IMG/VR virus record: IMGVR_UViG_3300044714_000024
Coordinates: 204-64,203 of that record
Strand: one strand, 5' to 3'
DNA length: 64,000 nt
Source of the DNA: a virus
Taxonomy: Duplodnaviria; Caudoviricetes
In this document: positions 2,571-26,358 of the stretch, one piece after another
Numbering within the stretch: position 1 is the stretch's first letter
Layout: every line of letters starts with the position of its first letter
Position numbers and translations under genes: made by a program
The notes under the pieces: generated by a model
What the model was told of the DNA's origin: nothing
Database searches by the model: none
Seen by the model: the letters and a program-made list of their open reading frames with translations, nothing else

Positions 2571-3869
2571 ATGAAATTCCTTTCTCGCTTCCGTGTTGCG
2601 GCGCTCTGCGCTCTGAGTGGTGCTGTTTTGGCGTTGCTCGGCACTGTCGGGCCGGTGCAGAATGCCGTCAGCCAGGGTATGCAGCAGATCACGAATCTCG
2701 CTGGCACCGAGCAAATCTCCCTGAATTACCCATGCACGGTGTCGTGTTTTACCACGTCGCTTTCGCTCGCTGGTCTTAATAACTCGCAGCCCACCCGCAA
2801 TAATGTCCTGATCGGCGGTGATGCGACAACCAATCTCTGGCAACGCGCCACGACCGGATCGAGCGTCACCACGACTGTCACCTATGGTGGTCCTGATCGT
2901 TGGGCCTATTGGTCCGGCGCTTCAACCGCCATGACGGTCTCGCGAGATTCGACAGCAGCCGATTTGCCCGCGAGCGCTTATCAGTACGGCTTCAAGATGG
3001 CGCGCACGTCGGGTCAAACCGGCGTGGTGCAGGTCTGCATGGCGCAGGAAATCGAATCGGTCAATTCGTATCAGTTGGCTGGATCGACGGTTGAATTCGA
3101 TTTTCACGCGACGGCTGGTGCTAATTTCTCCGCAGCCTCAAGCAATATGACGGCGTATATCGTCTATGGCACGAGCACCGACGAAGGCATGGCATCGCTC
3201 GCCAAGGGGTTGAACGGTGGTGGGGGCGGATCGGCGGGATGGACCGGCCAAGCCAATGCCACGGCGGCAGTCATTCCGATTACGACGACCAACGCGCGCT
3301 ATGCAGCGATTGCGACTGTTCCCGCGACCGCAACGGAAGTTGGAGTGGCGTTGTGCTTTACGCCAGTGGGTACGGCCGGCACAAATGATTATATCGCGTT
3401 CTCCGGGATTCAGTTGGTGCGCAATAGTGCGCTGGCTTCCAAGGTCTCCGCGACGCTTGGTTACGCTTGCACGACCATCAACTGCACAGGCTTTGATCGC
3501 CGGCAACAGGGCGATGAGACCGATCTACAATATCGTTACTACTATCAAGTCAACGATAACGTCGCCAACACGGTCCCGATCACGCTGTGTCAGGCGACGA
3601 CAACCTCGGCGGTCGTGTGTCCCATCCCGTTCCCGGTCACCATGCGTACTGCCCCGACCGCAACCGCATCGGCTTCCACGGCGTTTGGCGATACCGCGAC
3701 TGCCGGCGCTCCTACGGCCTGTACGGGATTTGCGGTCGTGGCGTCGTCAACTTCGGTACAGACCGGCAAGGTGACATGCACGGCCGGCGCGACGACCACG
3801 GCGGGCGGCTCATCCCAGCTTGTCGGAGCTAATACAGCAGCCAACGTGAACTTTAGCGCCGAGCTTTAG
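2571..3869 (+). CDS. fibre/spike-type protein (carbohydrate-binding-like domain) with N-terminal signal peptide
   Basis: RNN.LIGGD....WQR, DRW, ET.LQYRYY and FPVTMRTAPT motifs are typical of phage fibre domains. Leader MKFLSRFRVAALCALSGAVLALLG...AVS|Q. Confidence 0.75.
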   Translation: MKFLSRFRVAALCALSGAVLALLGTVGPVQNAVSQGMQQITNLAGTEQISLNYPCTVSCFTTSLSLAGLNNSQPTRNNVLIGGDATTNLWQRATTGSSVTTTVTYGGPDRWAYWSGASTAMTVSRDSTAADLPASAYQYGFKMARTSGQTGVVQVCMAQEIESVNSYQLAGSTVEFDFHATAGANFSAASSNMTAYIVYGTSTDEGMASLAKGLNGGGGGSAGWTGQANATAAVIPITTTNARYAAIATVPATATEVGVALCFTPVGTAGTNDYIAFSGIQLVRNSALASKVSATLGYACTTINCTGFDRRQQGDETDLQYRYYYQVNDNVANTVPITLCQATTTSAVVCPIPFPVTMRTAPTATASASTAFGDTATAGAPTACTGFAVVASSTSVQTGKVTCTAGATTTAGGSSQLVGANTAANVNFSAEL

Positions 3870-3896
3870 TCGTCGGAACAGCGGAGCAACTTCGCC

Positions 3897-4628
3897 ATGC
3901 GAAGGATTCTGTTTGCTGCGATTGCGCTGAGTCTGAGTATACTGCCTGCTTGGGCGCAAAATACGACCGGGCTTGTTGTGGCGACCTGCGGCACCGTTGT
4001 AACGGCGTTCAAGGCTGGTAATCCCGGCCCATTTACCGTCGATGTGAACGGCAACCTCTGCCAGACTGGCGGTGGGGGTGGCGGCTCAGTAACTCAGGGG
4101 ACGACGCCTTGGGTCGATAATATCACGCAATGGGCGAGCGTAACGCTTGGCGCCGCGACGGCCTGGGGAACGGCGCCGACCGGCAACGTGCCCGGCGTGA
4201 ATGCAAATATTCTTGGCCCGCTCGGGCAGCAACTTTCGGCAGCCTCGATTCCTGTCGTGTTGCCCGCGGCGCAGATCACGACGCTGACGCCACCGACAAC
4301 GGTAACCGCGAACGGCGCGGCCAATGTCACCGCGACCGACTGCTCCGGCACGGTGGCTTCTGGCGGCACCGCACAAAATGCTTTCACCGCGCAGACGACG
4401 CTGCACGGCTTCACCATCGCCAACATTGACACTACCGAGCCGCTGTGGATTTCGTTCACGACGACGGCGGCAGCGTCTGGCGCCGGGAGTTACCCGCTGC
4501 CGGCCGCGACCGCGACGACGTTTGCGGGGTTCGGCTCATTCACGGCGCCGCCTGGCTTCGGTCTCAATCACGCGCTCTCGGTGATCGCGGCGACGACCAG
4601 CCATAAGTTTACCTGCACATGGTGGTAA
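3897..4628 (+). CDS. putative structural/appendage protein with signal peptide
   Basis: Leader MRRILFAAIALSLSILPAWA|Q; Thr/Ala/Gly-rich; small beta-sandwich-like C-terminus. Confidence 0.75.
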   Translation: MRRILFAAIALSLSILPAWAQNTTGLVVATCGTVVTAFKAGNPGPFTVDVNGNLCQTGGGGGGSVTQGTTPWVDNITQWASVTLGAATAWGTAPTGNVPGVNANILGPLGQQLSAASIPVVLPAAQITTLTPPTTVTANGAANVTATDCSGTVASGGTAQNAFTAQTTLHGFTIANIDTTEPLWISFTTTAAASGAGSYPLPAATATTFAGFGSFTAPPGFGLNHALSVIAATTSHKFTCTWW

Positions 4629-4630
4629 TC

Positions 4631-5311
4631 ATGCGCCGATTGGCTCGCACGCTTGCCGCGCTTCTTCTCGCCTCCGCACTGATTTCGCCGAGCGCCGCGC
4701 AATTCGGCGGTTCCGGCAACACCGGATCGTGCAGCGGCGATCTGACCGGCACCTATCCGAACTGTACCGTCGCCAAGGTCAACGGCGGCACGCCGGGCGG
4801 CGCGTGCCCGTCGCATCAGTACATGACCGCAATGTCGTCGGCCGGAACGCCGACCTGCGCGCAGCCCAGCAATGGCGATGTGTCTGGCCTCGGTAGCATG
4901 GGCACCCAGGCATCGAACAACGTTTCGGTCAGCGGCGGCACGATCGACGGTGCCGCGGTCGGCGGTTCGACACCGGCGGCGGGGAATTTCACCAACGTCG
5001 GCTACTCCGGCGTCGAGATCAATACCGGCTTCAACGTGCAGTCGCCTTCGACCGGATTTAATATCACGGTCGGCGCTGGCATCGGATTGCAACTTTTGAG
5101 CCCAGCAGGAACGCTTTTGGCCGGCACGGTGAAAATGCCGGCCGCGCCTGTGAATGGGCAAGTGCTTCGGATCAAGACCACGCAAGCGATCACGACGCTT
5201 ACGCTCAGCCCGAACACAGGGCAGAGTTTGCTCGGCGCCATTCCGACGCTCGCGCTGGGCGGCGGTATCGAGTGCATTTATCAGACCTCGAACACCACAT
5301 GGTATTGCTGA
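4631..5311 (+). CDS. fibre-like protein with signal peptide
   Basis: Leader MRRLARTLAALLLASALISPSAA|Q; fibre motifs GDLTGTYPN and GLGSMGTQ.SNNV.VSGGTIDG..VGG.TPAAG.FT. Confidence 0.78.
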   Translation: MRRLARTLAALLLASALISPSAAQFGGSGNTGSCSGDLTGTYPNCTVAKVNGGTPGGACPSHQYMTAMSSAGTPTCAQPSNGDVSGLGSMGTQASNNVSVSGGTIDGAAVGGSTPAAGNFTNVGYSGVEINTGFNVQSPSTGFNITVGAGIGLQLLSPAGTLLAGTVKMPAAPVNGQVLRIKTTQAITTLTLSPNTGQSLLGAIPTLALGGGIECIYQTSNTTWYC

Positions 5312-5312: not shown

Positions 5313-6263
5313 ATGCTGCGGCGGGTTGCTCTTGCGCTTTGGCTGACGGCGGCTGTTTCGTTATTTGCTCTGACCGCTCCGCGCGCGCAGTTCAATGGCT
5401 GTTCGGCCGGATTTTGCAGTTCTTCGAGTGTGGGCTATCAAGGACCCGGCGATATTACGTCTGGCGCCATCGCGTTCTTTTCCGCCGGGCGCGCCTATAA
5501 CGCGGCTTACGCCGCGGTCACCGGCAGTCTGGCCGATCTCGTCGCGACGGGAAACGGCGCAGCGGTCTGTACGCTCAAGGCGCTGTTGAGCGGCTACGTC
5601 AACCTGACGAGTTCAGCGTGTTCTGGTTCAACGCCTGCCGCCGCCTGCGCTGCCGCCAATGGCGGATCGTGTAAGGTCACTAAGCTCTATGACCAGGCCG
5701 GCACTGGCAATCACGTCGTCCAGACAACGCTTGCCAATATGCCGGCGCTGACGTTCGGTGCGCAGAATGGATTGCCGTGTCCGGCGGGGACGGCAAATGC
5801 TTCGCTGGTCTTGGCAAGCGCAGGGACCATAACCCAAGCGCAGCCATTTACCTTTACGGCGGTCGCGGAACGCACTGGAAGTTTCACCACGGCTCAAAGA
5901 ATTTTGAATGTAGGAGCAACTAGTCCAACGCTGGCATTTTCAGCTAATGCTAATCAACCCACTTTCAGCGCTGGTACCGGACTCTTTCTCACAGCGGCGG
6001 ATAGCGCGTTCCACGCTTTGCTTGCTGTAGCAAGTCCAACGGCACCTTTATTTGCTGCGGATAGCAGTGCAAACACGACCACAGCGGCTAGCGGAGCAGG
6101 TACGTTGGCAGCGGTAGCATCCTTTATGAACCGTGGGTCAGGTGGGCAAGCAATGCTTGCTGGTTTCGTCTGCGAAGCGGGTATCTGGCCTGCCGATCTC
6201 AACGCATCCTATCAAGCCATGCTCGCCAATATGCGCAGTGCGACCAATGGGTGGAATTTCTAA
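5313..6263 (+). CDS. lectin/ConA-LamG-like head spike or fibre protein with signal peptide
   Basis: Leader MLRRVALALWLTAAVSLFALTAPRA|Q; VTKLYDQ.G.GNH..Q...AN.P motif. Confidence 0.72.
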   Translation: MLRRVALALWLTAAVSLFALTAPRAQFNGCSAGFCSSSSVGYQGPGDITSGAIAFFSAGRAYNAAYAAVTGSLADLVATGNGAAVCTLKALLSGYVNLTSSACSGSTPAAACAAANGGSCKVTKLYDQAGTGNHVVQTTLANMPALTFGAQNGLPCPAGTANASLVLASAGTITQAQPFTFTAVAERTGSFTTAQRILNVGATSPTLAFSANANQPTFSAGTGLFLTAADSAFHALLAVASPTAPLFAADSSANTTTAASGAGTLAAVASFMNRGSGGQAMLAGFVCEAGIWPADLNASYQAMLANMRSATNGWNF

Positions 6264-8161: not shown

Positions 8162-8839
8162 ATGGATGCCGCCCAAGATACCCTGAATCCGCCCAAACTC
8201 AAGACCTGTACGGCTTGCGGGATTGCGAAGCCGCTTGTTGAGTTTTTTCAAGATAAGCGCCGCAAGGAACCACGGGCTACCTGTAAAGAATGCGGCAAGG
8301 AGTACTATAGAGCTTGGTATCATCAGCGAGAAAATGCGCTGAACTTGGCTCGGGCTGCACAAAAGAAGAAAAAACAAGACCGGGAGTGGCAGGAAGTTCT
8401 AGATGGCGGTCGGGTTTGTGTTACTTGCGGAGAAAATAAACCAATCACGGAGTTTTTTAAGCATAGCCGTTCGTCGCGAGGATATAAGCGTATCTGTAAG
8501 GCTTGTGAAATAGCGGGACTCAAACGTTGGCGTCACGAAAATCCAGAGGACGCGAGAAAACGCGCAAGAGCGGCCCGCATTCGTATGGATTATGGAATGT
8601 CTACTCTTGAGTTTCAGGCGATGGTTGAAGCACAAGAAAACTGCTGTAAAATATGTGACAAAGAATTTCACCCGGACGGTGGTTATGCTGGCCCATATGT
8701 TGACCATAACCACTCGACAGGAAAAGTACGTGAACTTCTTTGTTTCGAGTGTAACAGCGGCTTGGGTCGTTTTAAGGATAATCCAGAATTGCTAAAGCGC
8801 GCAGCGTCCTATTTGGAAAAACATAAATCAGATGGATGA
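8162..8839 (+). CDS. endonuclease VII-family (His-Me finger) homing-type endonuclease
   Basis: Two C..C...KP..EF zinc-ribbon repeats, then Q...C.IC, VDHNH.TGKVR.LLC..CN.GLG.FKDN. More AT-rich than its flanks. Confidence 0.9.
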   Translation: MDAAQDTLNPPKLKTCTACGIAKPLVEFFQDKRRKEPRATCKECGKEYYRAWYHQRENALNLARAAQKKKKQDREWQEVLDGGRVCVTCGENKPITEFFKHSRSSRGYKRICKACEIAGLKRWRHENPEDARKRARAARIRMDYGMSTLEFQAMVEAQENCCKICDKEFHPDGGYAGPYVDHNHSTGKVRELLCFECNSGLGRFKDNPELLKRAASYLEKHKSDG

Positions 8840-9623
8840 TGTCACGATCAGTAATTTAGCCTTAGACGCCATAGGCGCGCGTTTCAGCCTTACGTCACTA
8901 CAGCCGCCGTTGCCGCCGCCCAATGCAGTAGTGGTCAGCCGGCGCTATCAGGTTACGATGGACAGTCTTTTTAGATCAGCGCATTGGAATTTTGCGAGAT
9001 TTCAGCGCCACGGCGTTGTACTGAAAGCCGCGCAAGGAACCCCGGAAAATCCCAACGGTACAACGCTACCAATTCCTCCTTATCCCTGGCAGTATGCCTA
9101 TCAATACCCCGCAGATTGTTTGCTCGCGCGTTATTTGCTCTGCAATCAGCCTTTGACGGGGAGTGGCAATCCATTTCCCGCAGGCGTGACGACAACGCCG
9201 CTGTGGCCGTTTGGCAATCCCGGTTATAAATTTGTGGTGGCGAACGATACGGATGTGGCAGGGAATCAAATAAAAGTTATTCTGACCGATCTGGAATTCG
9301 CGGATATTGTCTATACGGGGCGAGTGACGAACGTCGATCTTTGGGACGCTCACTTTCAGAACGCGGCGATTGCGACTCTTGGGGCGTGGTTGGTCAATCC
9401 TCTCGCTCGAAATGCAATAGTCCTCAAAGAGCAAATCGAGATCGCAACGTCGGTGGTGCAGTCGGCGCGAATCTCGGATGGCAATGAGGGAATTACTTCC
9501 ATAGATCACGTGCCCGATTGGATGGCCGTTCGTGGAATAACCGGCTACGGTCTCGGTTGGGACACGGCAATGTGTTATTACGGTTGGTCAAGTTTGGGAT
9601 TTCCTGGGGGCGGGTTTGTGTGA
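8832..9623 (+). CDS. tail adaptor / tail tubular protein A-like
   Basis: I.N.AL..IG, H.WNFA, W.YAY.YPADCL, D..F..A....L and AR..D..E motifs. Confidence 0.85.
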   Translation: MDDVTISNLALDAIGARFSLTSLQPPLPPPNAVVVSRRYQVTMDSLFRSAHWNFARFQRHGVVLKAAQGTPENPNGTTLPIPPYPWQYAYQYPADCLLARYLLCNQPLTGSGNPFPAGVTTTPLWPFGNPGYKFVVANDTDVAGNQIKVILTDLEFADIVYTGRVTNVDLWDAHFQNAAIATLGAWLVNPLARNAIVLKEQIEIATSVVQSARISDGNEGITSIDHVPDWMAVRGITGYGLGWDTAMCYYGWSSLGFPGGGFV

Positions 9624-12818: not shown

Positions 12819-13347
12819 CATGAACGGCTATGCTCATACGAAAGTACCGCTGCATCTTGAGCCTGTGCAGCGTGGCTACACTATCGAGCCAACCGAGGTC
12901 GGTCATATCTACCAATTAGCGGAGACTTTGCGCGAGCAAGACCGATTGGAGATTCTGAATCTCGGTTTTGGGGTCAAGAAAGCACTTTGGCGGGCCTATC
13001 GTAATTCGATCATGTGTAAGACGGCATTGGTGGCTGACAAGGTTGCGGCGATTTGGGGCTTGGGAATCGGTTTGCGTGCGGGTGTTAGTCCTTTGTCCGA
13101 TCTTGGAGTCCCGTGGTTGCATACATCGGTTGCTATCGAGTCTGTGCCTTTCTCTTTTGTCCGAGTAGCCAAGGTAGAGTTGGCAGCTATGTTGAAGCTA
13201 AGACCACGACTTGAATCGTTCGTGGCTGCTGACTATGCGCAGGCAATTAAATTTCTTCGGATTTTGGGCTTTGCTGTGGAAAAACCGGAAGTGGTTGGGC
13301 TTGGTGGTGCGCTGTACTGTAGGTTTCACATGGGCTTTGACGCTTAA
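12811..13347 (+). CDS. GNAT-fold virion assembly protein (T7 gp13-like)
   Basis: LRE.D..E, G.PW, L...V...Y..AIKFL..LGF; sits between nozzle and ejection genes. Confidence 0.7.
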   Translation: MLNMNGYAHTKVPLHLEPVQRGYTIEPTEVGHIYQLAETLREQDRLEILNLGFGVKKALWRAYRNSIMCKTALVADKVAAIWGLGIGLRAGVSPLSDLGVPWLHTSVAIESVPFSFVRVAKVELAAMLKLRPRLESFVAADYAQAIKFLRILGFAVEKPEVVGLGGALYCRFHMGFDA

Positions 13348-13356
13348 AGGATTAAA

Positions 13357-19100: not shown

Positions 19101-22100
19101 TCAAGGCTGACGCAAAGACGGTCATGGATTGGCTCGGACTGAAAGGGCCACAGGACTTAGCCCTGGGTTCGGATGCCTCACGGGCGGCCAAGATCAAGGC
19201 AACCAAGGCCCACGAGAAGTTTGCCAGGGGATTCGAGCAATATCTAAGAGAAGGCGTCGCGCCCTCTCCGCAGCTTGCCGGGGTATTCGCCAAGGTAAAG
19301 CAATGGATGCTCAATATCTATCAGACAATCAAAGGCTTAGGTGCTCCGATCAATGACGATATTCGGGCCGTTTTCGATCGGATGCTTGCGGAAGAACCTC
19401 AACGTACCGTGATCGCGCCTGAGATTGTCAAACGGCCTGATTTGCAGGATATTCATGAGTCGGACGCCGTTCTGACCGAGCCACACGAAGCGGAACGGGC
19501 AGCAGACCGCATTCAAAGTGAGGATGCCCGTGCACGAGCCGAACTCCCCAAGGATATAGCGGATGAGCATCGAGGAAGTGCAGAGAAAATTGGAACTAGC
19601 CCAAGCGAACCAATCCCATTGGGAGAAGATCGCGGCCGACCCGACACTATCGGTCCGGGCGGCGCTGGCAGCGCGCAACTCGGCACGGAGCCACCGGGCG
19701 GCGGCCACATTGTACCGCAAGGCGCTGGGCTACGAACACTTGAAGGCGGCGCAGGCACAATAGAGCCACTGCCGATTGGTCCTCACGTTCCGCTGGATGC
19801 TTTACCGGCGGCGAAGATGGATAAGGTCGGCAATATCCGGCTGGAAAATCTCGATAGTCCCGCCGCCGTCAACGATGCAATCCGAACGCTCTACCACGAA
19901 AACAGCGCGCAACTGGACGCCGCCACCCGAGGCGTCATGTCCGATCAATCCATCATGGATTTGGCGGACGCAATGGGCGTCGATCCGCGAATCGTCGCAA
20001 ATAACATGGACCGTCTGCGGCAGATGTCCGTGGAGGATGGAGTCCCGTTGGCTGCGCGTATCTGGTTGATGCGCGACACGTTCACAAAGCTCGCCGCCGA
20101 AGTCAGCCGGACCATGCAAGGCACGGATGAAGTCGCCTACGCGGAAGCGCGGCAGCGATTTTTGATGGCACACGAAACGCTGTCCGGCATCACGGCGGAA
20201 ATGGGCCGTGGGCTTCGCGCATTTAGGACTATGAAGGGAGCGACACAGAGCGCGGAAGAGCTTGCGGCGGTTTTGAAGGATGCGACCGGCAAGACGTTGT
20301 TTCAGTTGCAGCAGGAAATGACGTTGGGGCGCGCCGCGAATACTCCCGCTCAAATCGCGCGCATGGTGCAACAGGCGCAATTGTCGTGGTGGCAGAGAGT
20401 AAGATCGGGGGTTATCTCCTACGTCATCAACAATCTGATTTCCGGGCCGATCACTCACTTGGGATATTCCATTGGTAACGAGGTTTTGCAGTTATGGAAG
20501 GCCGTTCCTGAGACTGCGGCATCGGCGGCCGTCGGCGCAATCCGCGAACGCTTTGGAACTGCCGAACCGGGCGAGCGCGTGTATTTCGGCGAAATCGGAG
20601 CGCGTCTCTACGGCATGATGTATGGTGCAAGGGATGGAATTATGCCGTCCTACAGCGCACTTAAAACCGGCGTGTCAGTGATGAAGGGCGACGCTTCTGG
20701 GGTTGATCTTTTTAACTCAGAAATCGCTTACCGGCCGCAACAGATTCCCGGCAGGGTCGGTTACGTGTTGGAAACGCCATCGCGCCTTGTGGCGGCGATT
20801 CATACGATGCACTACGCCATGAACTACGAGGCGGAAATCTCCGCAATGGCGTTCCGCGATGCGATGAAGGAGGGATTTGATCTAGGCAGTGCGGAATTCA
20901 ACCAGCATATGGCGGAATTCCGGTCCAATCCTCCCGCGAACGCGATGCAAGAGGCGCACGACAATGCACTCGAAATGGTGCTGATGAAGCGTCCGACGTT
21001 CGGTTCGGCGCAATATCACTTGCAGAAAGCCGTCAACGGAAATCTTTTCGCCAAGCTCGTAATGCCGTTCCTGCAAATAGGAACGAACATTCTTCGGGAG
21101 GGTTATGTCGAGCGCACTCCGTTTGGTGCGCTGGTCTCTCAGGACATCCGAGATAATCTGTACGGCAAAAACGGCGAGGTTGCGCGGCAGACGCAAATGG
21201 GCAAGATCGCGCTCGGAACCGGACTCGCTACAACGGTTATCGGACTGACGGCGCAAGGCATTCTGACCGATGGAGGGCCGTCCGATCCGAAACAGCGCGA
21301 AGTCTTGGAAATGACGGGATGGAAGCCGTACAGCATCAAGGTCGGCAGCGAGTACATTCCCTATCGAAAATATATGAGCGCGCTCGGGCCTCTGGTCGCA
21401 GGCGTGTCGGATATGTATGCGGTCGGGCATCATCTGAGTGAGGAAGGCTTGACCAAAGGTGCCGCCGCCGCGCTGTTCGGATTTGCCGAAGTGGTTGCCG
21501 ATGAAACATGGATGCGAGGACTTGCGGACTTTATCGACGCGGCGCGGCATTGGGACCGTGACGGGGGAAAATTCTTGCGGAATTTCTCGATGAACTTTAT
21601 TCCGTTCTCTGTCGGGCTTCGACAAGTCGCCTCCATGACCGATCCCGTATGGCGCAGCGTGCGCTCGGAAATGGACGCCTTGCGCGCTCATATTCCCGGC
21701 ATGAGCCAAACGCTTCATCCCATTCGCGACATATGGGGCGAACCAATGCGCGGCGGCACGATGATGTCTTGGTCGCCGGCCGTGAACGATCCGGCAACAA
21801 TCGCGCTACAGAAAGCCGAATACTACCCTGCGCGGCTTCCGAGAAAGATTCGCGGCGTCGAATTGACCGATCAGCAGTACGATGACTTCACGCGAATCGC
21901 AGGCCGTGACGCCAAGATGCGTGTCAATGCCATGATATCGAATCCTGGCTTTAATCTCATCCCGCAGCAGCACCGCCAAGAAATGTTGCGCGACGTTTTT
22001 GCGGGGAAAAGTAGTTCAAAAGAGATGGCGGAAACCGTCATTATGATGCACTCTGCCGGTACGCCTAACGATATAATGAAGCAGGCGAACGATGCTAAGG

Positions 22101-22132
22101 AGGCTATCATGCAGAAAAGAACCGCCCCCTGA
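16154..22132 (+). CDS. large internal virion / DNA-ejection polyvalent protein
   Basis: ~1990 aa; TFFHESGH zincin-like motif, HEKFARGFE.YL.EG.AP, G.KPYSIK.G and P.RD.WGEP. TGATG coupling to the upstream gene. Confidence 0.85.
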   Translation: MQDVPAQQPTAAPVPQDVDTLFPEKGGAQDVDSLFPSSIEADRKAKAAGISHSPINDLIFGDKTVNPVARILDSFEQGFEQGWGTDRLGLSDESTEYLKKIGIFNDYQKGQASLVKTANEVLLRPAAVVLDAVIRRGLPAMFRGGQAVVQQVGEEVGAPNLAREIAALPEAFPTGLHGPVSGMPIPGLGLGESIRNTPGLVEAARNMRVIGAGERGWAGTGPVEAPKTEPVKIETVPQPVSGKPEQPSPMTPPPPVTAIEPEIITPDIHTAARQAAPDVFARYDTLKQQQDGLQKWLAEREAQGQSEPGVKAYLDGVNKELDELSPQVKAAYQQAAETTNAATVLPPVSQSWGMFPPPEVTGAPAKIDATHTVLSGANSTVDGTVVVDRSIPEFSPTLKTSVGESAPLHEFLAEHETTEAALMKDGMPYDQAHIRATAAERAKVEAAGVDWTAYTHEIDGYLNHVEHEPNTNPPTEPLHIDPQTAIGHHKSENKEGIAAAPATHPIEAQRDFIVNDVKRQLIAAGRPEAEAQAAGQLVAARYEARAARLGGARGSAEELYKAEGAQIRGPSGTAAPAPTGAPAIAPMPAAEAIPEDELTTIHIGHRAPRGPRAVPQERWSLLQFIADRGGIKADDKNIGDVRTIFGKDQKWIPGFGPLIRKDGMEIDRAREAAVEAGYIQDHGQSGVSSGEATSNIDTLLQAMDREERGNKVYRQGIEPTEASERVPDAAELEQHRAIQAELDTRIADYLKEVGIKPNEIEPSIFARMRELMDRQRLEPDIAHERAVMEADDHAVETENAPERTEYIPGWDVPDDTGAAQEARGATAQGEERPSGAGPRTDRDGDREKAWTEFYQRKRERDLIAEREVEGQQQIPGAEKITDAELAQRRANEPLKRTAEQKPMDVGLFGDEKDQQELFQQARGGIVLNPNAVPGHDYIGMENVRPLMRLTVEANASTFFHESGHHWLAELVRDAAHEAAPADLKADAKTVMDWLGLKGPQDLALGSDASRAAKIKATKAHEKFARGFEQYLREGVAPSPQLAGVFAKVKQWMLNIYQTIKGLGAPINDDIRAVFDRMLAEEPQRTVIAPEIVKRPDLQDIHESDAVLTEPHEAERAADRIQSEDARARAELPKDIADEHRGSAEKIGTSPSEPIPLGEDRGRPDTIGPGGAGSAQLGTEPPGGGHIVPQGAGLRTLEGGAGTIEPLPIGPHVPLDALPAAKMDKVGNIRLENLDSPAAVNDAIRTLYHENSAQLDAATRGVMSDQSIMDLADAMGVDPRIVANNMDRLRQMSVEDGVPLAARIWLMRDTFTKLAAEVSRTMQGTDEVAYAEARQRFLMAHETLSGITAEMGRGLRAFRTMKGATQSAEELAAVLKDATGKTLFQLQQEMTLGRAANTPAQIARMVQQAQLSWWQRVRSGVISYVINNLISGPITHLGYSIGNEVLQLWKAVPETAASAAVGAIRERFGTAEPGERVYFGEIGARLYGMMYGARDGIMPSYSALKTGVSVMKGDASGVDLFNSEIAYRPQQIPGRVGYVLETPSRLVAAIHTMHYAMNYEAEISAMAFRDAMKEGFDLGSAEFNQHMAEFRSNPPANAMQEAHDNALEMVLMKRPTFGSAQYHLQKAVNGNLFAKLVMPFLQIGTNILREGYVERTPFGALVSQDIRDNLYGKNGEVARQTQMGKIALGTGLATTVIGLTAQGILTDGGPSDPKQREVLEMTGWKPYSIKVGSEYIPYRKYMSALGPLVAGVSDMYAVGHHLSEEGLTKGAAAALFGFAEVVADETWMRGLADFIDAARHWDRDGGKFLRNFSMNFIPFSVGLRQVASMTDPVWRSVRSEMDALRAHIPGMSQTLHPIRDIWGEPMRGGTMMSWSPAVNDPATIALQKAEYYPARLPRKIRGVELTDQQYDDFTRIAGRDAKMRVNAMISNPGFNLIPQQHRQEMLRDVFAGKSSSKEMAETVIMMHSAGTPNDIMKQANDAKEAIMQKRTAP

Positions 22133-22299
22133 TGGCTGAAATTCGCCCGCCGATCACGCCAAGGAACGCGCCAGCCAAGACGCGACCGAGAGTGCGCCCG
22201 CTGCGGAAAGTAAAGGCGCCGTTTCTGCCGACCGAAAAACATCCCCACGGTTGGCTTGCTCATCATCGGATGAAGGCTGAGACTGGAAAGACCGAATGA
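22132..22299 (+). CDS. 55-aa basic hypothetical protein
   Basis: TGATG overlap upstream and ATGA overlap downstream; MAEIRPPITPR...KAETGKTE*. Confidence 0.55.
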   Translation: MAEIRPPITPRNAPAKTRPRVRPLRKVKAPFLPTEKHPHGWLAHHRMKAETGKTE

Positions 22300-24275
22300 A
22301 AAAAGCCGCCGGCCTCCTGCTCGCATTCCTCGGCCTTCTCATTTTAGGTGAGATCGTCGATCTGGCGTGGCTGGGTTATGTTCGCGCCACGGTGACGAGC
22401 GCGCAATCGTCCGTGGTGATCGGCGGCAACGGCTCTGTCACGAATTTCACATTCCCGTTTATTGGCGTCGCCTCCAACGACATTACGGTGATGTACACGG
22501 ACGCGAACGGCAATCAAACGACGCTCACGCCGAACACACAATACACGCTCACTCTCACTGCACCATTACCCGGAGCAATCTGGGGCCTCGGCGGCTCGGT
22601 CACATATCCCCTCGTTGGGTCTCCCATCGCGTCGGGGACCACGATTACCATCGCGCGGACGCTGCCCTATCTGCAAACCGTAAGCTCGAATCAGGGGCAG
22701 GCTTTCCCAACCGCGGTCGAAGCGGCGCTTGATCTACTGGCGATGCAGATTCAACAGGTCGATGCGTTGTTTGGGCGTGGGATTGCGATCCCGGTTTCCG
22801 ATAGCTGCGGCAATCTTGCGGCTTTGCCGGCGGCGGCACAACGAGCGAATCAGGTATTAGGCTTCGATGCGACTGGCTGCATCCCGGTCGCGGTTTCATC
22901 TTTGCCGGCAGGTACGGTTTCCTCGGCGATGCAGCCCGTGGTTAACGCGCCTACGATTGTGGCGGCGCGAGCAGGCCTTGGGCTAGGAAGCGCCGCGACG
23001 GAAAACGTCGGCTCTTATGGACTCGCTGACGATGGAGCAGGAAATTTAAGGCAGACTTTTATAACAGTTTCGGATTCAGGCTCCCAAAGCGTCACGTCGG
23101 CATTTCAACTCAATCAAAGAATCTGCTCCGGGCCGATCACCTATACCTTGCCGCGAGCAAATACATTGTGGAATGGATTTGGGTTCTGGATTTACTCCAT
23201 TTCAGGAATCTGCACGATCACGCCAAATGCTGCGGATAACTTTCCGGGCGTAGCTTCCGGTACGGCAATTACGATTGCCGCAGGCTCGTGGGCCTGGATC
23301 AGCACCAACGCGGCATCGACGGGAACGTGGTGGCTCGATGCTCATGGACCGTCGAATGGAAGTCTCGCAGCGGTTGCGAGCGGTAATGCTTTGACGATCA
23401 CATATTCGGGTGGACCGCTGCGATTCCGCGACAACACGCTGGCGAACGGCGATTCATTGTGGGCCATCCCGACAGGGGCGCTCGGCATCACTATCCCGCA
23501 AGGAGCAACGCTTGGAACATCAAGCAGCAATGTGCCATTTCGTATCTGGATATTTGCGGCGTACAATAGCGGCACGCCTATCCTGGGGGTAGCAACTTGT
23601 TCCTCTGCGACGCAGATTTATCCGTGCAAGGTATGGATGACACAGCGCAAGACCGGAACGGCAATTACCGCAGGAGCGACAAGCCCTGGAACGCTCTACA
23701 CATCTGCGGCGGATTCAAACGATAGCATTATCATCTTAGGTTATGCCGATTATGCGTCCGGGCTCGGAACGGCAGGAACATATGCCACTGCGCCCACCAC
23801 GTTGCAATCTTTTGTGGTCGGAGTTCCGGGTCCGGGAGAGGTCGTACAGACTATCGCGCCAGCGCCAATCACAACCACAACGTCATGCCAGACAACACAA
23901 ACCCAAACGACAATTACCGCCGCGATTAGTCTGCAAGGTCCCAACCTCGTAAGACTTCACGCGGGTGTTGCGGGTGTGATTGGTTCTGGACACAATATTT
24001 CGTTACGCTTTTCAAGGGGCGCTGGCCCCACGCTGTTCGGTGCGGCTCCTTTGCTCTCTATAGCATCTGGGGCTTTTACCTTTTTTACGTTTTTTGAAGC
24101 CATGGATGCGCCGCCGAGTGGTGGCACGCTCACGTACTATGTCTATTGCGCATCGGATGTAAACTCGGCGGCGACGGCAGGCGGCTCAAATGGCAGTTCG
24201 CTTATAATTGAAGAAATCATGGGAATGCTTGAACCCACAAACGACAATGAACTTTCTCTAACGAAAGTCGGATGA
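22296..24275 (+). CDS. tail fibre protein (podovirus fibre attachment domain) preceded by signal peptide
   Basis: After MKKAAGLLLAFLGLLILG...VRA| comes TVTS......GNG..T.F.FPF...GG.VTYP...G.TITI.R.LP..Q...NQG...P..VE.ALD.L.MQIQQ. Confidence 0.85.
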   Translation: MKKAAGLLLAFLGLLILGEIVDLAWLGYVRATVTSAQSSVVIGGNGSVTNFTFPFIGVASNDITVMYTDANGNQTTLTPNTQYTLTLTAPLPGAIWGLGGSVTYPLVGSPIASGTTITIARTLPYLQTVSSNQGQAFPTAVEAALDLLAMQIQQVDALFGRGIAIPVSDSCGNLAALPAAAQRANQVLGFDATGCIPVAVSSLPAGTVSSAMQPVVNAPTIVAARAGLGLGSAATENVGSYGLADDGAGNLRQTFITVSDSGSQSVTSAFQLNQRICSGPITYTLPRANTLWNGFGFWIYSISGICTITPNAADNFPGVASGTAITIAAGSWAWISTNAASTGTWWLDAHGPSNGSLAAVASGNALTITYSGGPLRFRDNTLANGDSLWAIPTGALGITIPQGATLGTSSSNVPFRIWIFAAYNSGTPILGVATCSSATQIYPCKVWMTQRKTGTAITAGATSPGTLYTSAADSNDSIIILGYADYASGLGTAGTYATAPTTLQSFVVGVPGPGEVVQTIAPAPITTTTSCQTTQTQTTITAAISLQGPNLVRLHAGVAGVIGSGHNISLRFSRGAGPTLFGAAPLLSIASGAFTFFTFFEAMDAPPSGGTLTYYVYCASDVNSAATAGGSNGSSLIIEEIMGMLEPTNDNELSLTKVG

Positions 24276-24598
24276 CGATGCCCGAACCCTTGATCCAGCA
24301 AAACCAGATTATCCCGATTGCTAGTCCGGTTTTTACGTCGGTCGCTCTGACCGGGGCGAACAGTCCGAGTGTCATCGGTCCGAACGCACAGCGACGCGGG
24401 ATCACGTTTGCAAATCCCTCCGCGACACAGACGATATATATTGCGCCTGCGGGCAGTCCGATTGCCGTGGGGCAAGGTATTCCGCTCTTTCCGGGAGCAA
24501 CATATTCGGTGATGGCGCAGGGTAACTTTCAGATCAATTGCGGATGGCAGGCTATCGCAAGCGGCGCGTGCAATCTCAGCATTCTGGAATTTGTCTGA
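24272..24598 (+). CDS. small beta-sandwich structural protein
   Basis: N..R.G..F.N......YI......GI.L.PG pattern; overlaps both neighbouring genes. Confidence 0.65.
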   Translation: MTMPEPLIQQNQIIPIASPVFTSVALTGANSPSVIGPNAQRRGITFANPSATQTIYIAPAGSPIAVGQGIPLFPGATYSVMAQGNFQINCGWQAIASGACNLSILEFV

Positions 24599-26358
24599 TG
24601 AAGAAGATTCTGCTAGTCTTGGCATTTCTGTTTGCTGCGGCAGTCCCGGCGGCAGCGCAGGGATGTGGTCCGCAGAATCCGAATTGCATTGTACCGACTG
24701 CGCCGCCAGGGACGAGCGATAATCGCGCGGCTTCTACGGCGTTCGTGGAGAATGCCGTAACGGCGGCGCCGATAACCTCAGCGCAACTTGATGCCATCTG
24801 TTCTACCAATAACGAGTTTTTGATTCGCGTTACAGGCACTTGGCAGTGCGGCACATTCAGCGGTCAATTCAGCGTTGGCAGCACGCTCAGTATTGCAAGC
24901 TTGGCGTGGAGTCTGATCACCGGCACGCCTACAACGCTCGCAGGCTACGGCATCACGAATGCCCGCCCCCAACTTTCAAATGCGCTGACCATCTATGTCA
25001 ACGGGAATAGCACGTCAGCGACATGCCAACCCAGTAGTGCAACGCCGGCAACTTGTGCTGCCGGGAACGATAGCAACAATTGCCTGACGCCAGCGACGGC
25101 GTGCTTGACTCTGGCGCGGGGCCTCATCGCGGCTCGAAGCGTCGACGAGGCGGGATTTCAAATCACCATCGTCCTTGCCTATACGACGGCGGGGAGCGCT
25201 GGCGCACTGAATTATGGCGGCACGTTTGCTCTTGGCCCGGCCATCGGAGCGCAAGGCCCCGGCGGCAATGCATTGTTCATTACAGGCGATCTTAATTCGC
25301 CCGCATCCGTCAGCATAACGGCGCCGAATACTGGGCTGCTCGATGGCATCTACGCCAGCGACGGATTCGTAGGACGCTTGTCATACGTTCAACTTGATAA
25401 TCAAAGCGCCGCGTCGGACGGCCTTCGCGTCGGGCAGATGGCCATTGTTGACCTTCTTGGTGTGACGTGCGGAGCGTCCTGGACGGGCACTGCGGGCTCC
25501 TGCCTTTACTTGGAGAAGGGCGGCGTTATGAACGGCGCCGGCTCCCCGATGCTGACCTTGGCCGGATGTGGTGCATTTGCTCTGCAAATGACGGGCGGCA
25601 TTTTCAACGCCGCCGACATATCCAATCCCGGCACGCCCAGGACCATAGCCATTCCGTCAGCTATTGCGTGTGGTGTTTCAACCGTTGTGGCGACGGGCAA
25701 TTCGGAACTTCTCGGCTTTACCAACAATACCTTCACGGGCTCTGGTGTTGCAGGAACGACGGGCACGCGCGCCATTCTCGCGGGCGCGGCCTATGTGAAT
25801 TATTCCGGCGCAAGCTCCGTCAACTCGATCTTTCCCGGCAATGTCAATGCAACAATTCAGGACGCGGCGACAACAAATCACGCGGGCGACACGCGAACTG
25901 TGCCACTTCCGGTAGCGAGCGGTGGCACCGGCGTCTCGACTACTCCCGGTATTCAAGCCATCGCCGCTGGGGAGTTCATCAATTTTATAGCTAGCGGCGT
26001 CAACTTCAACTCAGCAAACACCGACACGGCTATCCCTATAACACTGCCGACTGGCTATACCCGTTATATTGTTTTCCAGGTACAGATAAGCGGCGCCAGT
26101 GCGTCAATCAGCACGGCGACCTTTGGTGTTTTCTCAGCAGCGGGCGGGACCGGTACGGCTTGGGTTGCGAGCGGCACGGCCATTTCCGTGGTAAGTGCTA
26201 GTGATGCAACCACGAATAATTATCAGTCAACGAATGCGTCAGCAGGTTCAGCGAGTTTTTTGGTCGCTAATACGCCTAACATTTACTTCCGGGTCGTGGG
26301 AGCACAGGGATCACCGGCGACCGCCAACGTAATCATTAGTGTAAAGCCGTCGCCGTAG
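24598..26358 (+). CDS. tailspike/fibre-like protein with signal peptide
   Basis: Leader MKKILLVLAFLFAAAVPAAA|Q; PTAP.G.S...AASTAFV, I.G.PTTLAGYGIT.A and IYV....GND.N.CL...AC.T motifs, then a beta-helix-like region. Confidence 0.82.
   Translation: MKKILLVLAFLFAAAVPAAAQGCGPQNPNCIVPTAPPGTSDNRAASTAFVENAVTAAPITSAQLDAICSTNNEFLIRVTGTWQCGTFSGQFSVGSTLSIASLAWSLITGTPTTLAGYGITNARPQLSNALTIYVNGNSTSATCQPSSATPATCAAGNDSNNCLTPATACLTLARGLIAARSVDEAGFQITIVLAYTTAGSAGALNYGGTFALGPAIGAQGPGGNALFITGDLNSPASVSITAPNTGLLDGIYASDGFVGRLSYVQLDNQSAASDGLRVGQMAIVDLLGVTCGASWTGTAGSCLYLEKGGVMNGAGSPMLTLAGCGAFALQMTGGIFNAADISNPGTPRTIAIPSAIACGVSTVVATGNSELLGFTNNTFTGSGVAGTTGTRAILAGAAYVNYSGASSVNSIFPGNVNATIQDAATTNHAGDTRTVPLPVASGGTGVSTTPGIQAIAAGEFINFIASGVNFNSANTDTAIPITLPTGYTRYIVFQVQISGASASISTATFGVFSAAGGTGTAWVASGTAISVVSASDATTNNYQSTNASAGSASFLVANTPNIYFRVVGAQGSPATANVIISVKPSP

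What the first reader, a model, noticed from the sequence alone, without database searches (positions are those of the whole stretch)
2571..26358. Six fibre/spike structural proteins carry Sec signal peptides and paired cysteines: candidate periplasm-folded, late-attached virion appendages
Seen: ORFs at 2571, 3897, 4631, 5313, 22296 and 24598 each begin with a basic n-region, a hydrophobic h-region and an AxA-like site (AVS|Q, AWA|Q, SAA|Q, PRA|Q, VRA|T, AAA|Q). Four starts are tightly coupled to upstream stops (TAAtcATG, TGAtATG, ATGA, TGATG), so the leaders are not over-extended calls. Mature Cys counts are 10, 4, 6, 8, 8 and 12: all even and mostly local pairs (GCGPQNPNC, GCSAGFC). On reading, the two large ejection proteins and the cement protein contain no Cys. 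The bodies carry phage fibre/spike motifs. Established: tailed-phage virions assemble in the reducing cytoplasm, their fibres normally lack signal peptides, and DsbA/B forms disulfides in the periplasm. Inference: this phage exports its receptor-binding and decoration proteins, folds them oxidatively and docks them on particles at or after lysis. While in the periplasm they might also mask receptors.
Basis: partly seen in the sequence, partly recalled or inferred. Interest (0 to 1): 0.92.

Follow-up and report, generated by a model that had tools for sequence, protein, structure and literature searches.

The report
Phage tail fibres carrying export signals
An uncultured 64-kb short-tailed soil phage puts ordinary bacterial secretion signals and paired cysteines on all its host-recognition-type proteins, including the fibre that plugs into the tail, so these parts very probably fold outside the cytoplasm where the particle is built.

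Summary
All six ORFs start with a basic, then hydrophobic, then small-x-small leader, and their mature Cys counts are 10, 4, 6, 8, 8 and 12. The two ejection proteins and the cement protein have no Cys.

Comparative data show the leaders are real:
- **E leader:** synonymous changes outnumber replacements (9:2, 11:5, 10:5).
- **A family:** 113 of 120 members have a leader, and Cys columns come and go in pairs.
- **F-type N-module:** all 48 proteins follow a leader, and 46 of 48 have even Cys counts.
- **E-type fibres:** 23 of 151 carry leaders that always end x-x-Ala just before the Thr where 112 leaderless fibres have Met-Thr.

The bodies are fibre or spike types:
- E resembles the tail fibres of BcepC6B gp18 and BPP-1 Bbp9.
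- A is a CBM-like fibre tip.
- F is a tailspike beta-helix.
- D has a lectin/GH54-like fold.

E is the only tail-attachment domain in the genome.

Export and oxidative folding are well supported. Docking onto particles after the inner membrane opens is the most economical reading, but it is untested. Five literature searches found no description of this route for tailed phages. This scan has noted the same pattern before on other DNA (myo- and siphophages of Bradyrhizobium-type bacteria).

The parts
2571..3869 (+). A: 432-aa leader-bearing fibre-tip-like protein. Leader aa 1-34 (2571-2672), predicted cut AVS|Q, 10 mature Cys.
   Evidence: Sequence. The family has 646 metagenomic proteins at E<=1e-3, none named and none with a Pfam domain. 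113 of the 120 listed have a leader at the called start. In 47 aligned members the Cys columns are paired: 55/59 in 12+12, 156/262 in 47+47, 300/305 in 28+28, 340/350 in 41/44, 384/403 in 44/40. AF2 model: pLDDT 77.8, pTM 0.72. It matches predicted phage tail-fibre structures in BFVD at E 7e-29 to 1e-12, TMq 0.45-0.67, and CBM4/16/61 jelly rolls and CBA120 TSP4 in PDB at E 1e-5 to 1e-3.
3897..4628 (+). B: 243-aa leader-bearing protein. Leader aa 1-20 (3897-3956), AWA|Q, 4 mature Cys. Fold unknown.
   Evidence: The only family hit is PHROG 22789 (unknown function) on aa 146-241, E 3.6e-6. ESM Atlas gives only unnamed viral clusters, score 0.90-0.91. Residues 1-55 (leader plus first mature stretch) recur in L027 and L017/L018 in front of different bodies.
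4631..5311 (+). C: 226-aa leader-bearing protein. Leader aa 1-23 (4631-4699), SAA|Q, 6 mature Cys. It has a C-terminal ~95-aa domain shared with other phage fibre-like proteins.
   Evidence: Start coupled to the B stop (TAAtcATG). 21 homologues. Among the fetched homologues that end in the same C-terminal domain, the leaderless ones inspected (P0359, P0360, P0362, P0363) have no Cys at the two C-terminal positions of C (215 and 226), while the three leader-bearing ones (P0356-P0358) keep the pair.
5313..6263 (+). D: 316-aa leader-bearing protein. Leader aa 1-25 (5313-5387), PRA|Q, 8 mature Cys. Lectin/glycosidase-like beta-sandwich.
   Evidence: Start coupled to the C stop (TGAtATG). ESM Atlas: nearest clusters are viral and carry PF09206 ArabFuran-catal (40-80% of members) or Laminin_G_3 (10%), feature score 0.98, structure TM 0.74 by query. 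Treat this as a lead, not an alignment.
22296..24275 (+). E: 659-aa tail fibre. Leader aa 1-31 (22296-22388), VRA|T. Tail-attachment domain about aa 32-165 (22389-22790). 8 Cys.
   Evidence: Eight PHROG tail protein/fibre/spike families hit aa 33-184, aligned to profile positions 3-13 onward, best E 1.2e-18. tblastn finds annotated tail fibres of BcepC6B gp18 ('similar to BPP-1 Bbp9'), Pelagibacter Skadi phages and E. coli podophages. gp18 starts MTVTSS and mature E starts TVTS. Leader codons 1-31, synonymous:replacement, are 9:2, 11:5 and 10:5 against L046 and L047. It is the only match in the genome to a profile of this domain.
24272..24598 (+). s108: leaderless 108-aa gene between E and F (2 Cys), overlapping the E stop (ATGA) and the F start (TGATG).
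   Evidence: tblastn finds an s108-like stretch in 18 of 34 viral loci that hold an F-type N-module gene, just upstream of that gene in most of them. Role unknown.
24598..26358 (+). F: 586-aa leader-bearing tailspike-like protein. Leader aa 1-20 (24598-24657), AAA|Q. Conserved mature N-module aa 21-54 (24658-24759). Beta-helix about aa 125-440 (24970-25917). C-terminal beta-sandwich. 12 mature Cys.
   Evidence: 48 of 84 homologues share the N-module behind leaders of unlike sequence, and 46 of those 48 have even mature Cys counts. The module is fused to unlike bodies, including PF13884 Peptidase_S74 and PF12708 Pectate_lyase_3. Q21, G22, C23, G24, P25, N27 and C30 are invariant, and A20 at -1 is at least 90% conserved in 31 sequences. 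AF2 model: pLDDT 76.7. VIA-align gives Z 15.7 to phage Fri1 tailspike gp49 (rmsd 4.0, 239 aligned) and Z 12-15 to many tailspikes and pectin methylesterases over aa 123-445.
190..2530 (+). Context upstream of the A-D cassette: major capsid protein (190-1224), cement protein (1255-1815) and a Cys-free 227-aa ORF (1847-2530).
   Evidence: Pfam GP7 E 1.6e-91 and Bbp16 E 6.9e-7. PHROG 212 major head protein. Cys counts.
8832..22132 (+). Context: leaderless tail tube A (8832-9623), tube B (9624-12818) and four internal virion/ejection proteins (12757-22132).
   Evidence: PHROGs 394, 376, 308, 418, 7, 9880 and 6651. No leader at their starts by the heuristic. 0 Cys in the 174-, 739- and 2011-aa proteins.

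Best explanation
The window is nearly a whole 64,203-bp genome of an uncultured short-tailed (BPP-1/T7-type) phage. Its host is probably a soil alphaproteobacterium.

Its six fibre/spike-type late proteins are made with cleavable Sec-type signal peptides. My reading runs in five steps.
1. They are exported across the inner membrane during late infection.
2. Signal peptidase I cuts them, at VRA|T in E and before Gln in the other five.
3. They fold in the oxidising periplasm with disulfide bonds.
4. Capsids, tail tube and ejection proteins assemble in the cytoplasm without fibres.
5. When the holin breaches the inner membrane, the particles meet the folded fibres. E plugs into the tail through its canonical N-terminal domain. 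F, and perhaps A-D, dock through their own conserved mature N-terminal modules.

What is shown by sequence comparison: the leaders are real and under selection, the cut-site rule holds, cysteines are paired, the bodies are of fibre/spike type, and the genome holds no leaderless fibre.

What is inferred: export, cleavage, disulfides, and above all late docking.
For: **The leaders are real.**
- All six fit the n/h/c pattern.
- The E leader shows 9:2, 11:5 and 10:5 synonymous:replacement changes against two relatives. The in-frame GTGs near the junction are not conserved: V33 only in the window, V29 only in L046/L047.
- A family: 113 of 120 members have a leader of variable sequence.
- F module: 48 of 48 follow a leader.

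**The cut site is constrained.**
- The set is E plus its 150 best cluster representatives, 151 in all.
- 118 start within one residue of a conserved Thr, 112 of them as Met-Thr.
- 23 carry a 19-46-aa hydrophobic leader that always ends x-x-Ala right before that position: VRA 8, AHA 4, ARA 3, AAA 2, and one each of six others.
- 10 of 16 E-type fibres beside an F-module gene in viral contigs have such leaders, all of unlike sequence.
- On a tree of the mature domain the leader needs 8 changes, at least 4 of them forced by well-supported branches.

**Cysteines point to disulfides.**
- Cys columns are paired in A.
- Even counts: 46 of 48 for the F module; 61 even, 14 odd and 9 zero of 84 leader ORFs across loci.
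- Leader-bearing E-type fibres have 1.22% Cys against 0.70% in leaderless ones, Mann-Whitney p 5e-4.
- The leaderless versions of C's end domain that I inspected lack its Cys pair.

**The proteins look like virion parts.**
- E carries the tail-attachment domain of annotated tail fibres, and it is the only copy in the genome.
- PHROG scans of 40 ORFs found no other fibre.
- The mature N-modules are nearly invariant while both the leaders and the bodies vary.
- The genes lie in the late structural operon, three of them with coupled starts.
Against: - No experiment of any kind exists, and no cultured relative. tblastn of A and F against 50,697 phage records found nothing.
- SignalP was not available, so the leader calls rest on a home-made heuristic plus comparison.
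- I could not obtain model coordinates, so no Cys-Cys distance was measured.
- The A-D cassette is accessory. By the heuristic, 24 of 46 related loci have 1-8 leader ORFs between the cement gene and the next conserved gene, and 22 have none. These 22 include the distant relatives with a 1.3-kb gap, and some are truncated loci. The core particle therefore does not need A-D.
- In some relatives (L100, L101, L104-L106) the E-type fibre has no leader while the neighbouring F-type gene has one. The two would then be made in different compartments.
- The small gene s108 that usually precedes F-type genes has no leader.
- 14 of 84 leader ORFs, and 4 of 16 long leader-bearing E-type fibres, have odd Cys counts.
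- The 23 of 151 share is inflated, because the query included E's own leader.
- Exported fibre-like proteins that are not virion parts exist in bacteria: Bdellovibrio MAT fibres, each with a signal peptide followed by a conserved ~130-aa domain (PMC10769870, passages read).
Confidence: 0.5

Rival explanations
1. Mixed case. Only the tail fibre E (and perhaps F) reaches the particle after export. The A-D cassette proteins are exported but stay free. They would be glycan-binding or glycan-cutting factors that work in the periplasm, on the cell surface or in the lysate: remodelling or degrading LPS/EPS, masking receptors so that progeny are not lost on debris, or excluding superinfecting phages.
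For: - The cassette is accessory and turns over fast. It holds 0-8 leader ORFs in relatives. With a capsid 99.7% identical, A is only 52% identical, B 61% and D 62%.
- Folds are carbohydrate-binding or glycosidase-like: A CBM-like, D PF09206/Laminin_G_3 look-alikes.
- G+C is slightly raised at 2001-6000, 0.60-0.62.
- Recalled precedents of exported phage proteins encoded beside fibre genes: T5 Llp, lambdoid Cor, Lom, Bor.
- Bdellovibrio MAT fibres show that exported fibre-like adhesins work without a virion.
Against: - A-D keep conserved mature N-terminal modules in front of swapped bodies: B 1-55, D 1-35 and A 4-71 recur in other loci. This is the pattern of docking modules in receptor-binding proteins.
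- They lie between capsid and tail genes on the same strand, with coupled starts. They are not arranged as separate morons.
- A's fold matches annotated tail fibres far better than free enzymes do: E 7e-29 in BFVD against 1e-5 in PDB.
Confidence: 0.22
2. None of the six joins the particle. All are exported decoys, surface adhesins or exclusion factors, and the particle recognises its host by another part, for example the enlarged tail tube B.
For: - Tube B is 1064 aa against a 712-position PHROG profile, so it has room for an extra domain.
- About half of the ORFs in the genome have no family hit and were not all scanned.
- Exported tailspike-like enzymes exist in bacteria. Pantoea WceF, PDB 6tgf, is among F's structural matches at Z 13.7; its export is recalled, not checked.
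Against: - E keeps a well conserved tail-attachment domain, with 25 invariant columns in 24 sequences, and there is no leaderless copy.
- A decoy would not need that domain, nor a cut site held exactly at the canonical first residue in 23 of 23 leaders.
Confidence: 0.1
3. The leaders do not lead to export of the bulk protein. Either the starts are mis-called, or the hydrophobic segment is an uncleaved membrane tether or timer, and the fibres are loaded in the cytoplasm as in other tailed phages.
For: - No export or cleavage predictor and no experiment was available.
- E's own leader type is atypical: 31 aa with acidic residues after the hydrophobic core.
- The window has an in-frame GTG at V33.
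Against: - There is a synonymous excess in the E leader, and no alternative start is conserved.
- Many E-type leaders are textbook short signal peptides ending AHA, ARA or AAA.
- A positive n-region ahead of the hydrophobic core puts the C-terminal body outside (established topology rule).
- Even, covarying cysteines and higher Cys content go with the leader. A reducing cytoplasm would not select for that.
Confidence: 0.08

Closest known systems
Tail fibres of BPP-1-like and T7-like podophages (Burkholderia phage BcepC6B gp18, annotated 'similar to BPP-1 Bbp9'; T7 gp17 by recall)
   Same: E shares the N-terminal tail-attachment domain: 34-38% identity to annotated fibres and PHROG tail fibre/spike families. 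It sits after the internal virion proteins. Mature E begins TVTS, like gp18 residues 2-5.
   Different: Those fibres start at Met1 with no leader, as do 112 of 151. E has a 31-aa leader and more cysteines.
Anchor-and-branch multi-spike systems of podophages (K1-5/SP6, KP32 gp37/gp38, G7C gp63.1/gp66; recalled, not checked here)
   Same: A first fibre carries the tail-binding domain. Further spikes carry a short conserved N-terminal module in front of swappable depolymerase bodies. F's module heads Peptidase_S74, Pectate_lyase_3 and other bodies, and F's beta-helix matches Kp32gp38 at Z 14.2.
   Different: All known examples are cytoplasmic and leaderless. Docking of F on E was not shown here.
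Bdellovibrio bacteriovorus MAT fibres (PMC10769870, passages read)
   Same: The architecture matches: signal peptide, then a conserved domain right after it, then a phage-fibre-like trimer with variable tips (with or without S74), some with disulfides.
   Different: They are chromosomal genes of a predator and work as cell adhesins. They are not encoded in a phage structural operon and have no tail-attachment domain.
Filamentous phage coat and receptor-binding proteins (Ff pIII, pVIII; recalled)
   Same: These are phage receptor-binding proteins made with Sec signal peptides, disulfide-bonded in the periplasm, and added to the particle outside the cytoplasm.
   Different: Ff particles are extruded through the envelope without lysis. 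There is no homology, and they are not tailed phages.
Exported phage late or accessory proteins: Sec/SAR endolysins, T4 RI (title seen listing), T5 Llp, lambdoid Cor/Lom/Bor (recalled)
   Same: Tailed phages do use host Sec for some proteins. Several of these are encoded next to fibre genes and act on receptors.
   Different: They are small enzymes, regulators, lipoproteins or outer-membrane proteins. They are not fibre/spike proteins, and none is a virion part.

Membership tests
Sec-type (signal peptidase I) signal peptide | Positively charged n-region followed by a hydrophobic h-region of about 10-15 residues | tested here: met
   All six pass. Best 9-residue hydropathy is 2.2-3.5, and net charge is +2 or +3.
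Sec-type (signal peptidase I) signal peptide | Small uncharged residues at -3 and -1 of the cut site | tested here: met
   The six sites are AVS, AWA, SAA, PRA, VRA and AAA; the -3 Pro of D's site PRA falls outside the small or aliphatic residues usual at -3. 23 of 23 E-type leaders end x-x-Ala with V/A/S/G/T at -3. A20 is at least 90% conserved in the F-module alignment.
Sec-type (signal peptidase I) signal peptide | Homologues keep the pattern while the leader sequence drifts | tested here: met
   A family 113 of 120; F module 48 of 48. E-type leaders in 10 of 16 viral loci are all unlike one another.
Sec-type (signal peptidase I) signal peptide | Export and cleavage shown by experiment or by a trained predictor (SignalP, DeepTMHMM) | not testable with these tools
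Twin-arginine (Tat) signal | Conserved RR in an S/T-R-R-x-F-L-K-like motif | tested here: not met
   B, C and D have RR, but their homologues start MKIK, MRWL, MGRF or MTWR, and A, E and F have none.
Lipoprotein (signal peptidase II) signal | Lipobox L-[AS]-[GA]-C with Cys at +1 | tested here: not met
   No lipobox in any of the six. F has A-Q-G-C with Cys at +3 of the AAA|Q site.
Disulfide-bonded exported proteins | Even cysteine number, and cysteines gained or lost in pairs among homologues | tested here: met
   Exceptions: 14 of 84, 2 of 48 and 4 of 16 have odd counts.
Disulfide-bonded exported proteins | Paired cysteines adjacent in three dimensions | not testable with these tools
   I could not obtain model coordinates (the fold outputs are summaries and no model file lay in /data or /scratch).
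Podovirus tail fibre with N-terminal tail-attachment domain (E) | Homology of the N-terminal ~130 residues to known tail fibres, and a gene placed after the internal virion proteins | tested here: met
   7751 library proteins hit at E<=1e-3.
Podovirus tail fibre with N-terminal tail-attachment domain (E) | The domain begins at the protein's first residues | tested here: not met
   E has 31 extra residues. The feature would be met only after the predicted cleavage.
Tailspike-type right-handed beta-helix depolymerase (F) | Parallel beta-helix body | tested here: met
   On a predicted model only. Z 15.7, rmsd 4.0, 239 aligned to Fri1 gp49; Z 12-15 to at least 20 tailspikes and to pectin methylesterases.
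Tailspike-type right-handed beta-helix depolymerase (F) | Catalytic residues, trimer formation and attachment to the particle | not tested
   No active-site comparison was made. See Tried and rejected for the docking attempt.
Phage exclusion lipoproteins and outer-membrane morons (Llp, Cor, Lom, Bor) | Small lipoprotein or beta-barrel, with its own expression signals outside the late operon | tested here: not met
   The six are 226-659 aa with fibre/spike folds and no lipobox. They lie inside the late operon, three with coupled starts. No homology search against those families was made.

The most novel reading that the evidence does not exclude
Two-compartment virion assembly in a tailed phage. 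Every host-recognition part of this podovirus is secreted by Sec, including the fibre that plugs into the tail. Each is trimmed to its canonical N-terminus by the host's signal peptidase and stapled with disulfides in the periplasm. DNA-filled, fibreless particles wait in the cytoplasm, and the two meet only when the holin opens the inner membrane. The same trick has arisen or been kept repeatedly in soil phages of different tail types.
Probability: 0.45. Interest if true: 0.9.

Novelty: new variant of a known kind. Interest (0 to 1): 0.8.

Why it matters
Textbook assembly of tailed phages takes place wholly in the reducing cytoplasm. If these fibres are exported, several things follow.
- A large uncultured group of soil phages builds its host-recognition gear in another compartment.
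- That gear uses host Sec, signal peptidase and Dsb enzymes, which would then be host factors for infectivity.
- The fibres gain disulfide-stabilised domains that cytoplasmic fibres cannot have.
- Lysis would become an assembly step.

There are practical consequences too.
- **Annotation:** leader-bearing ORFs in structural modules should not be dismissed as morons.
- **Expression of soil-phage receptor-binding proteins:** they may need periplasmic expression.
- **Host-range prediction** would have to take these proteins into account.

The claim is directly testable by N-terminal proteomics of particles and by fusions of the leaders.

Tried and rejected
**Mis-called starts.** Rejected. The E leader has a synonymous excess and no conserved alternative start. 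In fact the window has GTG at V33, and L046/L047 have GTG at V29. Neither is shared.

**Tat signal and lipoprotein signal.** Both rejected (see Membership tests).

**Type IV pilin-like leader.** Rejected by eye: the hydrophobic stretch lies before the cut site, not after it.

**Docking of F on E.** Complex prediction with E 165-360 x3 and F 21-110 x3 returned 'no answer', score 0.00. This is evidence neither way.

**Searches that gave little or nothing.**
- Pfam found nothing for any of the six at E<=0.01.
- PHROGs found nothing for A, C, D or F.
- Megablast of window 1-24000 against cultured phages: no match.
- tblastn of F and A against cultured phages: no match.
- F's first 66 residues against 301 genomes of the family of a Bradyrhizobium-labelled MAG: 1 of 301, a weak 43% match. 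I record this as not found in those searched.
- The same query against 3 MAGs holding related capsids: 1 weak match.
- Foldseek of the F model against PDB gave tail fibres and spikes, but with TM at most 0.18. The VIA second look was needed.
- ESM Atlas gave no named family for B.

**Host.** It is inferred only from MAG labels on contigs with related capsids: Beijerinckiaceae, Bradyrhizobium, Reyranella, Rhizobium, but also Terriglobia, Sterolibacterium and Collinsella. One F-type protein is listed from Bradyrhizobium zhanjiangense. Binning of phage contigs is unreliable.

**Literature.** Five full-text searches found no tailed-phage fibre described as exported or signal-peptide-bearing.
- I read passages of PMC12210884, PMC3556154, PMC9144972 and PMC13412088. 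None bears on the question.
- I read passages of PMC10769870 (Bdellovibrio MAT fibres), which does.
- All other papers were seen only as search listings.
- Supplements were not opened.

**Not done.** The lysis genes were not classified, with no family hits except GH108. No RNA or read data were examined.

Full report
**What the window is.** The window is 64,000 of the 64,203 bases of one virus record. It carries a BPP-1/T7-type podovirus structural module on the + strand:
- major capsid protein, Pfam GP7, 190-1224;
- cement protein, Bbp16, 1255-1815;
- a 227-aa ORF, then the four ORFs A-D (2571-6263) and some small ORFs;
- an endonuclease VII-like gene;
- tail tube A and B (8832-12818);
- four internal virion proteins (12757-22132);
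- fibre E (22296-24275), a 108-aa gene, F (24598-26358) and a GH108 fragment.

Portal and terminase pieces lie at 56-61 kb. No cultured phage is close. Megablast finds nothing, and tail tube B is at most 35% identical to cultured podophages.

**The observation.**
- All six ORFs begin with a basic n-region, a hydrophobic core and a small-x-small site.
- A crude heuristic of my own passes all six. It passes 19 of 515 ATG ORFs of 80 aa or more in six frames.
- Mature Cys counts are 10, 4, 6, 8, 8 and 12.
- The 739- and 2011-aa ejection proteins, the cement protein and the 227-aa ORF have none.
- Cys codons are 19.9 per 1000 in the six genes, against 3.6 per 1000 in ten other structural genes.
- One detail is wrong. 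Only C, D and F have starts coupled to a stop. The ATGA junction belongs to the leaderless 108-aa gene.

**Are the leaders translated and selected?** I fetched 50 viral loci and 19 MAG loci with related capsids or fibres.
- *E.* Two relatives keep the leader. Synonymous:replacement changes in codons 1-31 are 9:2, 11:5 and 10:5, and the replacements seen are mostly hydrophobic for hydrophobic. The in-frame GTGs near the junction are not shared.
- *A.* The large protein collection holds 646 homologues at E<=1e-3, unnamed and without Pfam domains, many on contigs of about 60-68 kb. Of the 120 listed, 113 have a leader at the called start. The other 7 are over- or under-called starts or near misses of the heuristic. 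The leaders differ widely in sequence.
- *F.* 48 of 84 homologues share the mature N-module, and every one of them is preceded by a leader of unlike sequence.

**The E junction.** I searched 1.84 billion cluster representatives with E residues 1-170. This gave 7751 hits at E<=1e-3. The set analysed is E plus the best 150.
- 118 begin within one residue of a conserved Thr, 112 of them as Met-Thr.
- 23 carry a hydrophobic leader of 19-46 aa that always ends x-x-Ala immediately before that position.
- 10 look like over-called starts.
- Because the query held E's own leader, the share of 23 in 151 is biased upward. Many of the 23, however, have short classical leaders unlike E's.
- In viral contigs chosen through the F module, 10 of 16 neighbouring E-type fibres have such leaders and 6 start directly at Met/Val-Thr.
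- A quick tree of the mature domain (150 rows, 136 columns, weakly resolved) needs 8 changes of the leader state. At least 4 are forced by well-supported branches, and 0 of 500 shuffles scored as low.
- The annotated tail fibre gp18 of Burkholderia phage BcepC6B ('similar to BPP-1 Bbp9') starts MTVTSS. E after the predicted cut starts TVTS.

Cleavage would therefore recreate the N-terminus that leaderless fibres have once their first Met is removed.

**Cysteines.**
- In 47 aligned A-family proteins the Cys columns are occupied in pairs: 12+12, 47+47, 28+28, 41/44 and 44/40.
- F-module proteins have even mature Cys counts in 46 of 48.
- Over the window and 69 loci, 84 dereplicated leader ORFs have zero 9, even 61, odd 14. 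Other long ORFs, spurious frames included, have 165, 280 and 354 (tests).
- Leader-bearing E-type fibres of 350 aa or more: 12 even, 4 odd, 1.22% Cys. Leaderless ones: 56 even, 48 odd, 4 zero, 0.70% Cys, p 5e-4.
- The C-terminal domain of C also occurs in leaderless phage proteins; the ones I inspected that end in the domain lack its terminal Cys pair. The three leader-bearing homologues keep it.
- These rows are related to one another, so the p values are generous.

**What the bodies are.**
- *E:* tail-fibre/spike PHROGs on the N-domain.
- *A:* the model (pLDDT 77.8) matches predicted tail fibres in BFVD (E 7e-29 and weaker, TMq up to 0.67) and CBM-type jelly rolls and a CBA120 tailspike in PDB.
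- *F:* the model (pLDDT 76.7) has a beta-helix at about 125-440, with Z 15.7 to a phage tailspike and Z 12-15 to many more and to pectin methylesterases. Proteins sharing its N-module carry Peptidase_S74 or Pectate_lyase_3 domains.
- *D:* Atlas look-alikes are viral clusters with the arabinofuranosidase-B catalytic fold or Laminin_G_3.
- *C:* shares a small end domain with other phage fibre-like proteins.
- *B:* remains unassigned.
- In a relative's cassette, one leader ORF has Peptidase_S74 and tail-fibre PHROGs.

**Modularity and turnover.**
- With capsids 99.7% identical, A, B and D are only 52-62% identical.
- By the heuristic, the stretch between the cement gene and the next conserved gene holds at least one leader ORF (1-8) in 24 of 46 loci and none in 22. 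The 22 include truncated loci and the distant relatives with a 1.3-kb gap.
- Leader plus first mature residues recur in front of different bodies: F 1-54, B 1-55, D 1-35, A 4-71.
- In the F module the mature residues are nearly invariant while the leader just upstream is not. The conservation is therefore at the protein level, as in docking modules of receptor-binding proteins.
- An s108-like stretch is found in 18 of the 34 F-module loci, just upstream of the module gene in most of them. An E-type fibre is found in 17 of them, 16 of which I read at the start.

**No leaderless alternative.** A profile of the attachment domain finds one frame only in the whole genome, which is E. PHROG scans of 40 ORFs found no other fibre. 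Not every small ORF was scanned.

**Reading.**
- Export, cleavage and disulfide formation are inferred, but they rest on several independent kinds of comparative evidence. I put them at about 0.85.
- That E then joins the particle follows from three points. It is the only attachment-domain protein. The domain is well conserved. The cut site is held exactly at the canonical first residue.
- From established knowledge (recalled): holin lesions let large complexes cross the inner membrane before the outer membrane fails, and fibreless T4 and T7 particles accept fibres in extracts. Late docking is therefore physically reasonable.
- For A-D, and to a lesser degree F, a free exported role remains open. 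That role could be glycan remodelling, receptor masking, exclusion, or adhesins like the Bdellovibrio MAT fibres, which have the same layout of signal peptide, conserved domain and variable tip.
- Relatives in which a leaderless E sits beside a leader-bearing F-type gene show that the two need not share a compartment. This weakens a simple picture in which the whole complex is preassembled in the periplasm.

**Comparison with what is known.** The five literature searches and the passages I read turned up no tailed-phage fibre with an export signal. The closest kinds are:
- leaderless fibres with the same domain;
- anchor-and-branch spike systems;
- MAT fibres;
- Ff coat proteins;
- exported endolysins and exclusion proteins.

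Earlier notes of this scan describe the same pattern in myophages, siphophages and prophages of Bradyrhizobium-type bacteria. I did not test those. What this window adds:
- a podovirus case in which the tail-plugging domain itself carries the leader;
- the exact-junction statistic;
- the finding that no leaderless fibre is left in the genome.

Noticed in passing
window 31373-31632 (-): The phage carries tRNA-Thr(TGT), tRNA-Pro(TGG) and tRNA-Cys(GCA). The six leader genes use Cys codons at 19.9 per 1000 and Thr codons at 126 per 1000. Ten other structural genes use them at 3.6 and 68 per 1000. The tRNA-Cys and tRNA-Thr may serve these late genes.
   Followed up: partly
window 29184-29993 (+): A 269-aa ORF with a textbook signal peptide and no Cys, placed after the lysis region. 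Pfam and PHROGs give no hit. It may be an outer-membrane or periplasmic accessory protein.
   Followed up: no
window 42714-43064 (-): A small early-region ORF (116 aa) with a signal-peptide-like start and 6 mature Cys. No family hit.
   Followed up: no
L004:4522-5010, L007:12352-12834, L014:10004-10501, L015:12717-13226, L022:14284-14778, L026:12555-13058, L050:1722-2198: Relatives encode a ~160-aa family just after the cement and 227-aa genes. It has a leader, then an N-stretch like A's mature start, then an end domain like C's. Pfam and PHROGs give no significant hit in the five scanned, apart from one sub-threshold StcE_b-sandwich match for L015. It may be the minimal member of the cassette.
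   Followed up: partly
window 24272-24598 and loci L073-L106: An s108-like stretch is found in 18 of 34 loci that hold an F-type N-module gene, just upstream of that gene in most of them. A leaderless partner for an exported protein is unexplained.
   Followed up: partly
window 9624-12818: Tail tube B is 1064 aa, against a 712-position PHROG profile that it spans end to end. It must hold large insertions.
   Followed up: no
window 8162-8839: An endonuclease VII/HNH-like gene with 13 Cys sits inside the structural operon just before tail tube A.
   Followed up: no
window 56512-57393 and 57701-58510: The large terminase appears as two separate ORFs with PHROG terminase hits. This agrees with another first-reader note on this window.
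   Followed up: no
window 2001-6000: G+C is 0.60-0.62 over the A-D cassette, against 0.52-0.60 in the rest of the window.
   Followed up: no
L034:2377-3744, L035:2595-5760, L038:3201-4266, L062:11509-19676: More distant relatives lack the cassette after the cement gene. They carry runs of 2-5 leader ORFs with even Cys counts elsewhere, upstream of the capsid gene or, in a Terriglobia-labelled MAG contig, downstream of it.
   Followed up: no
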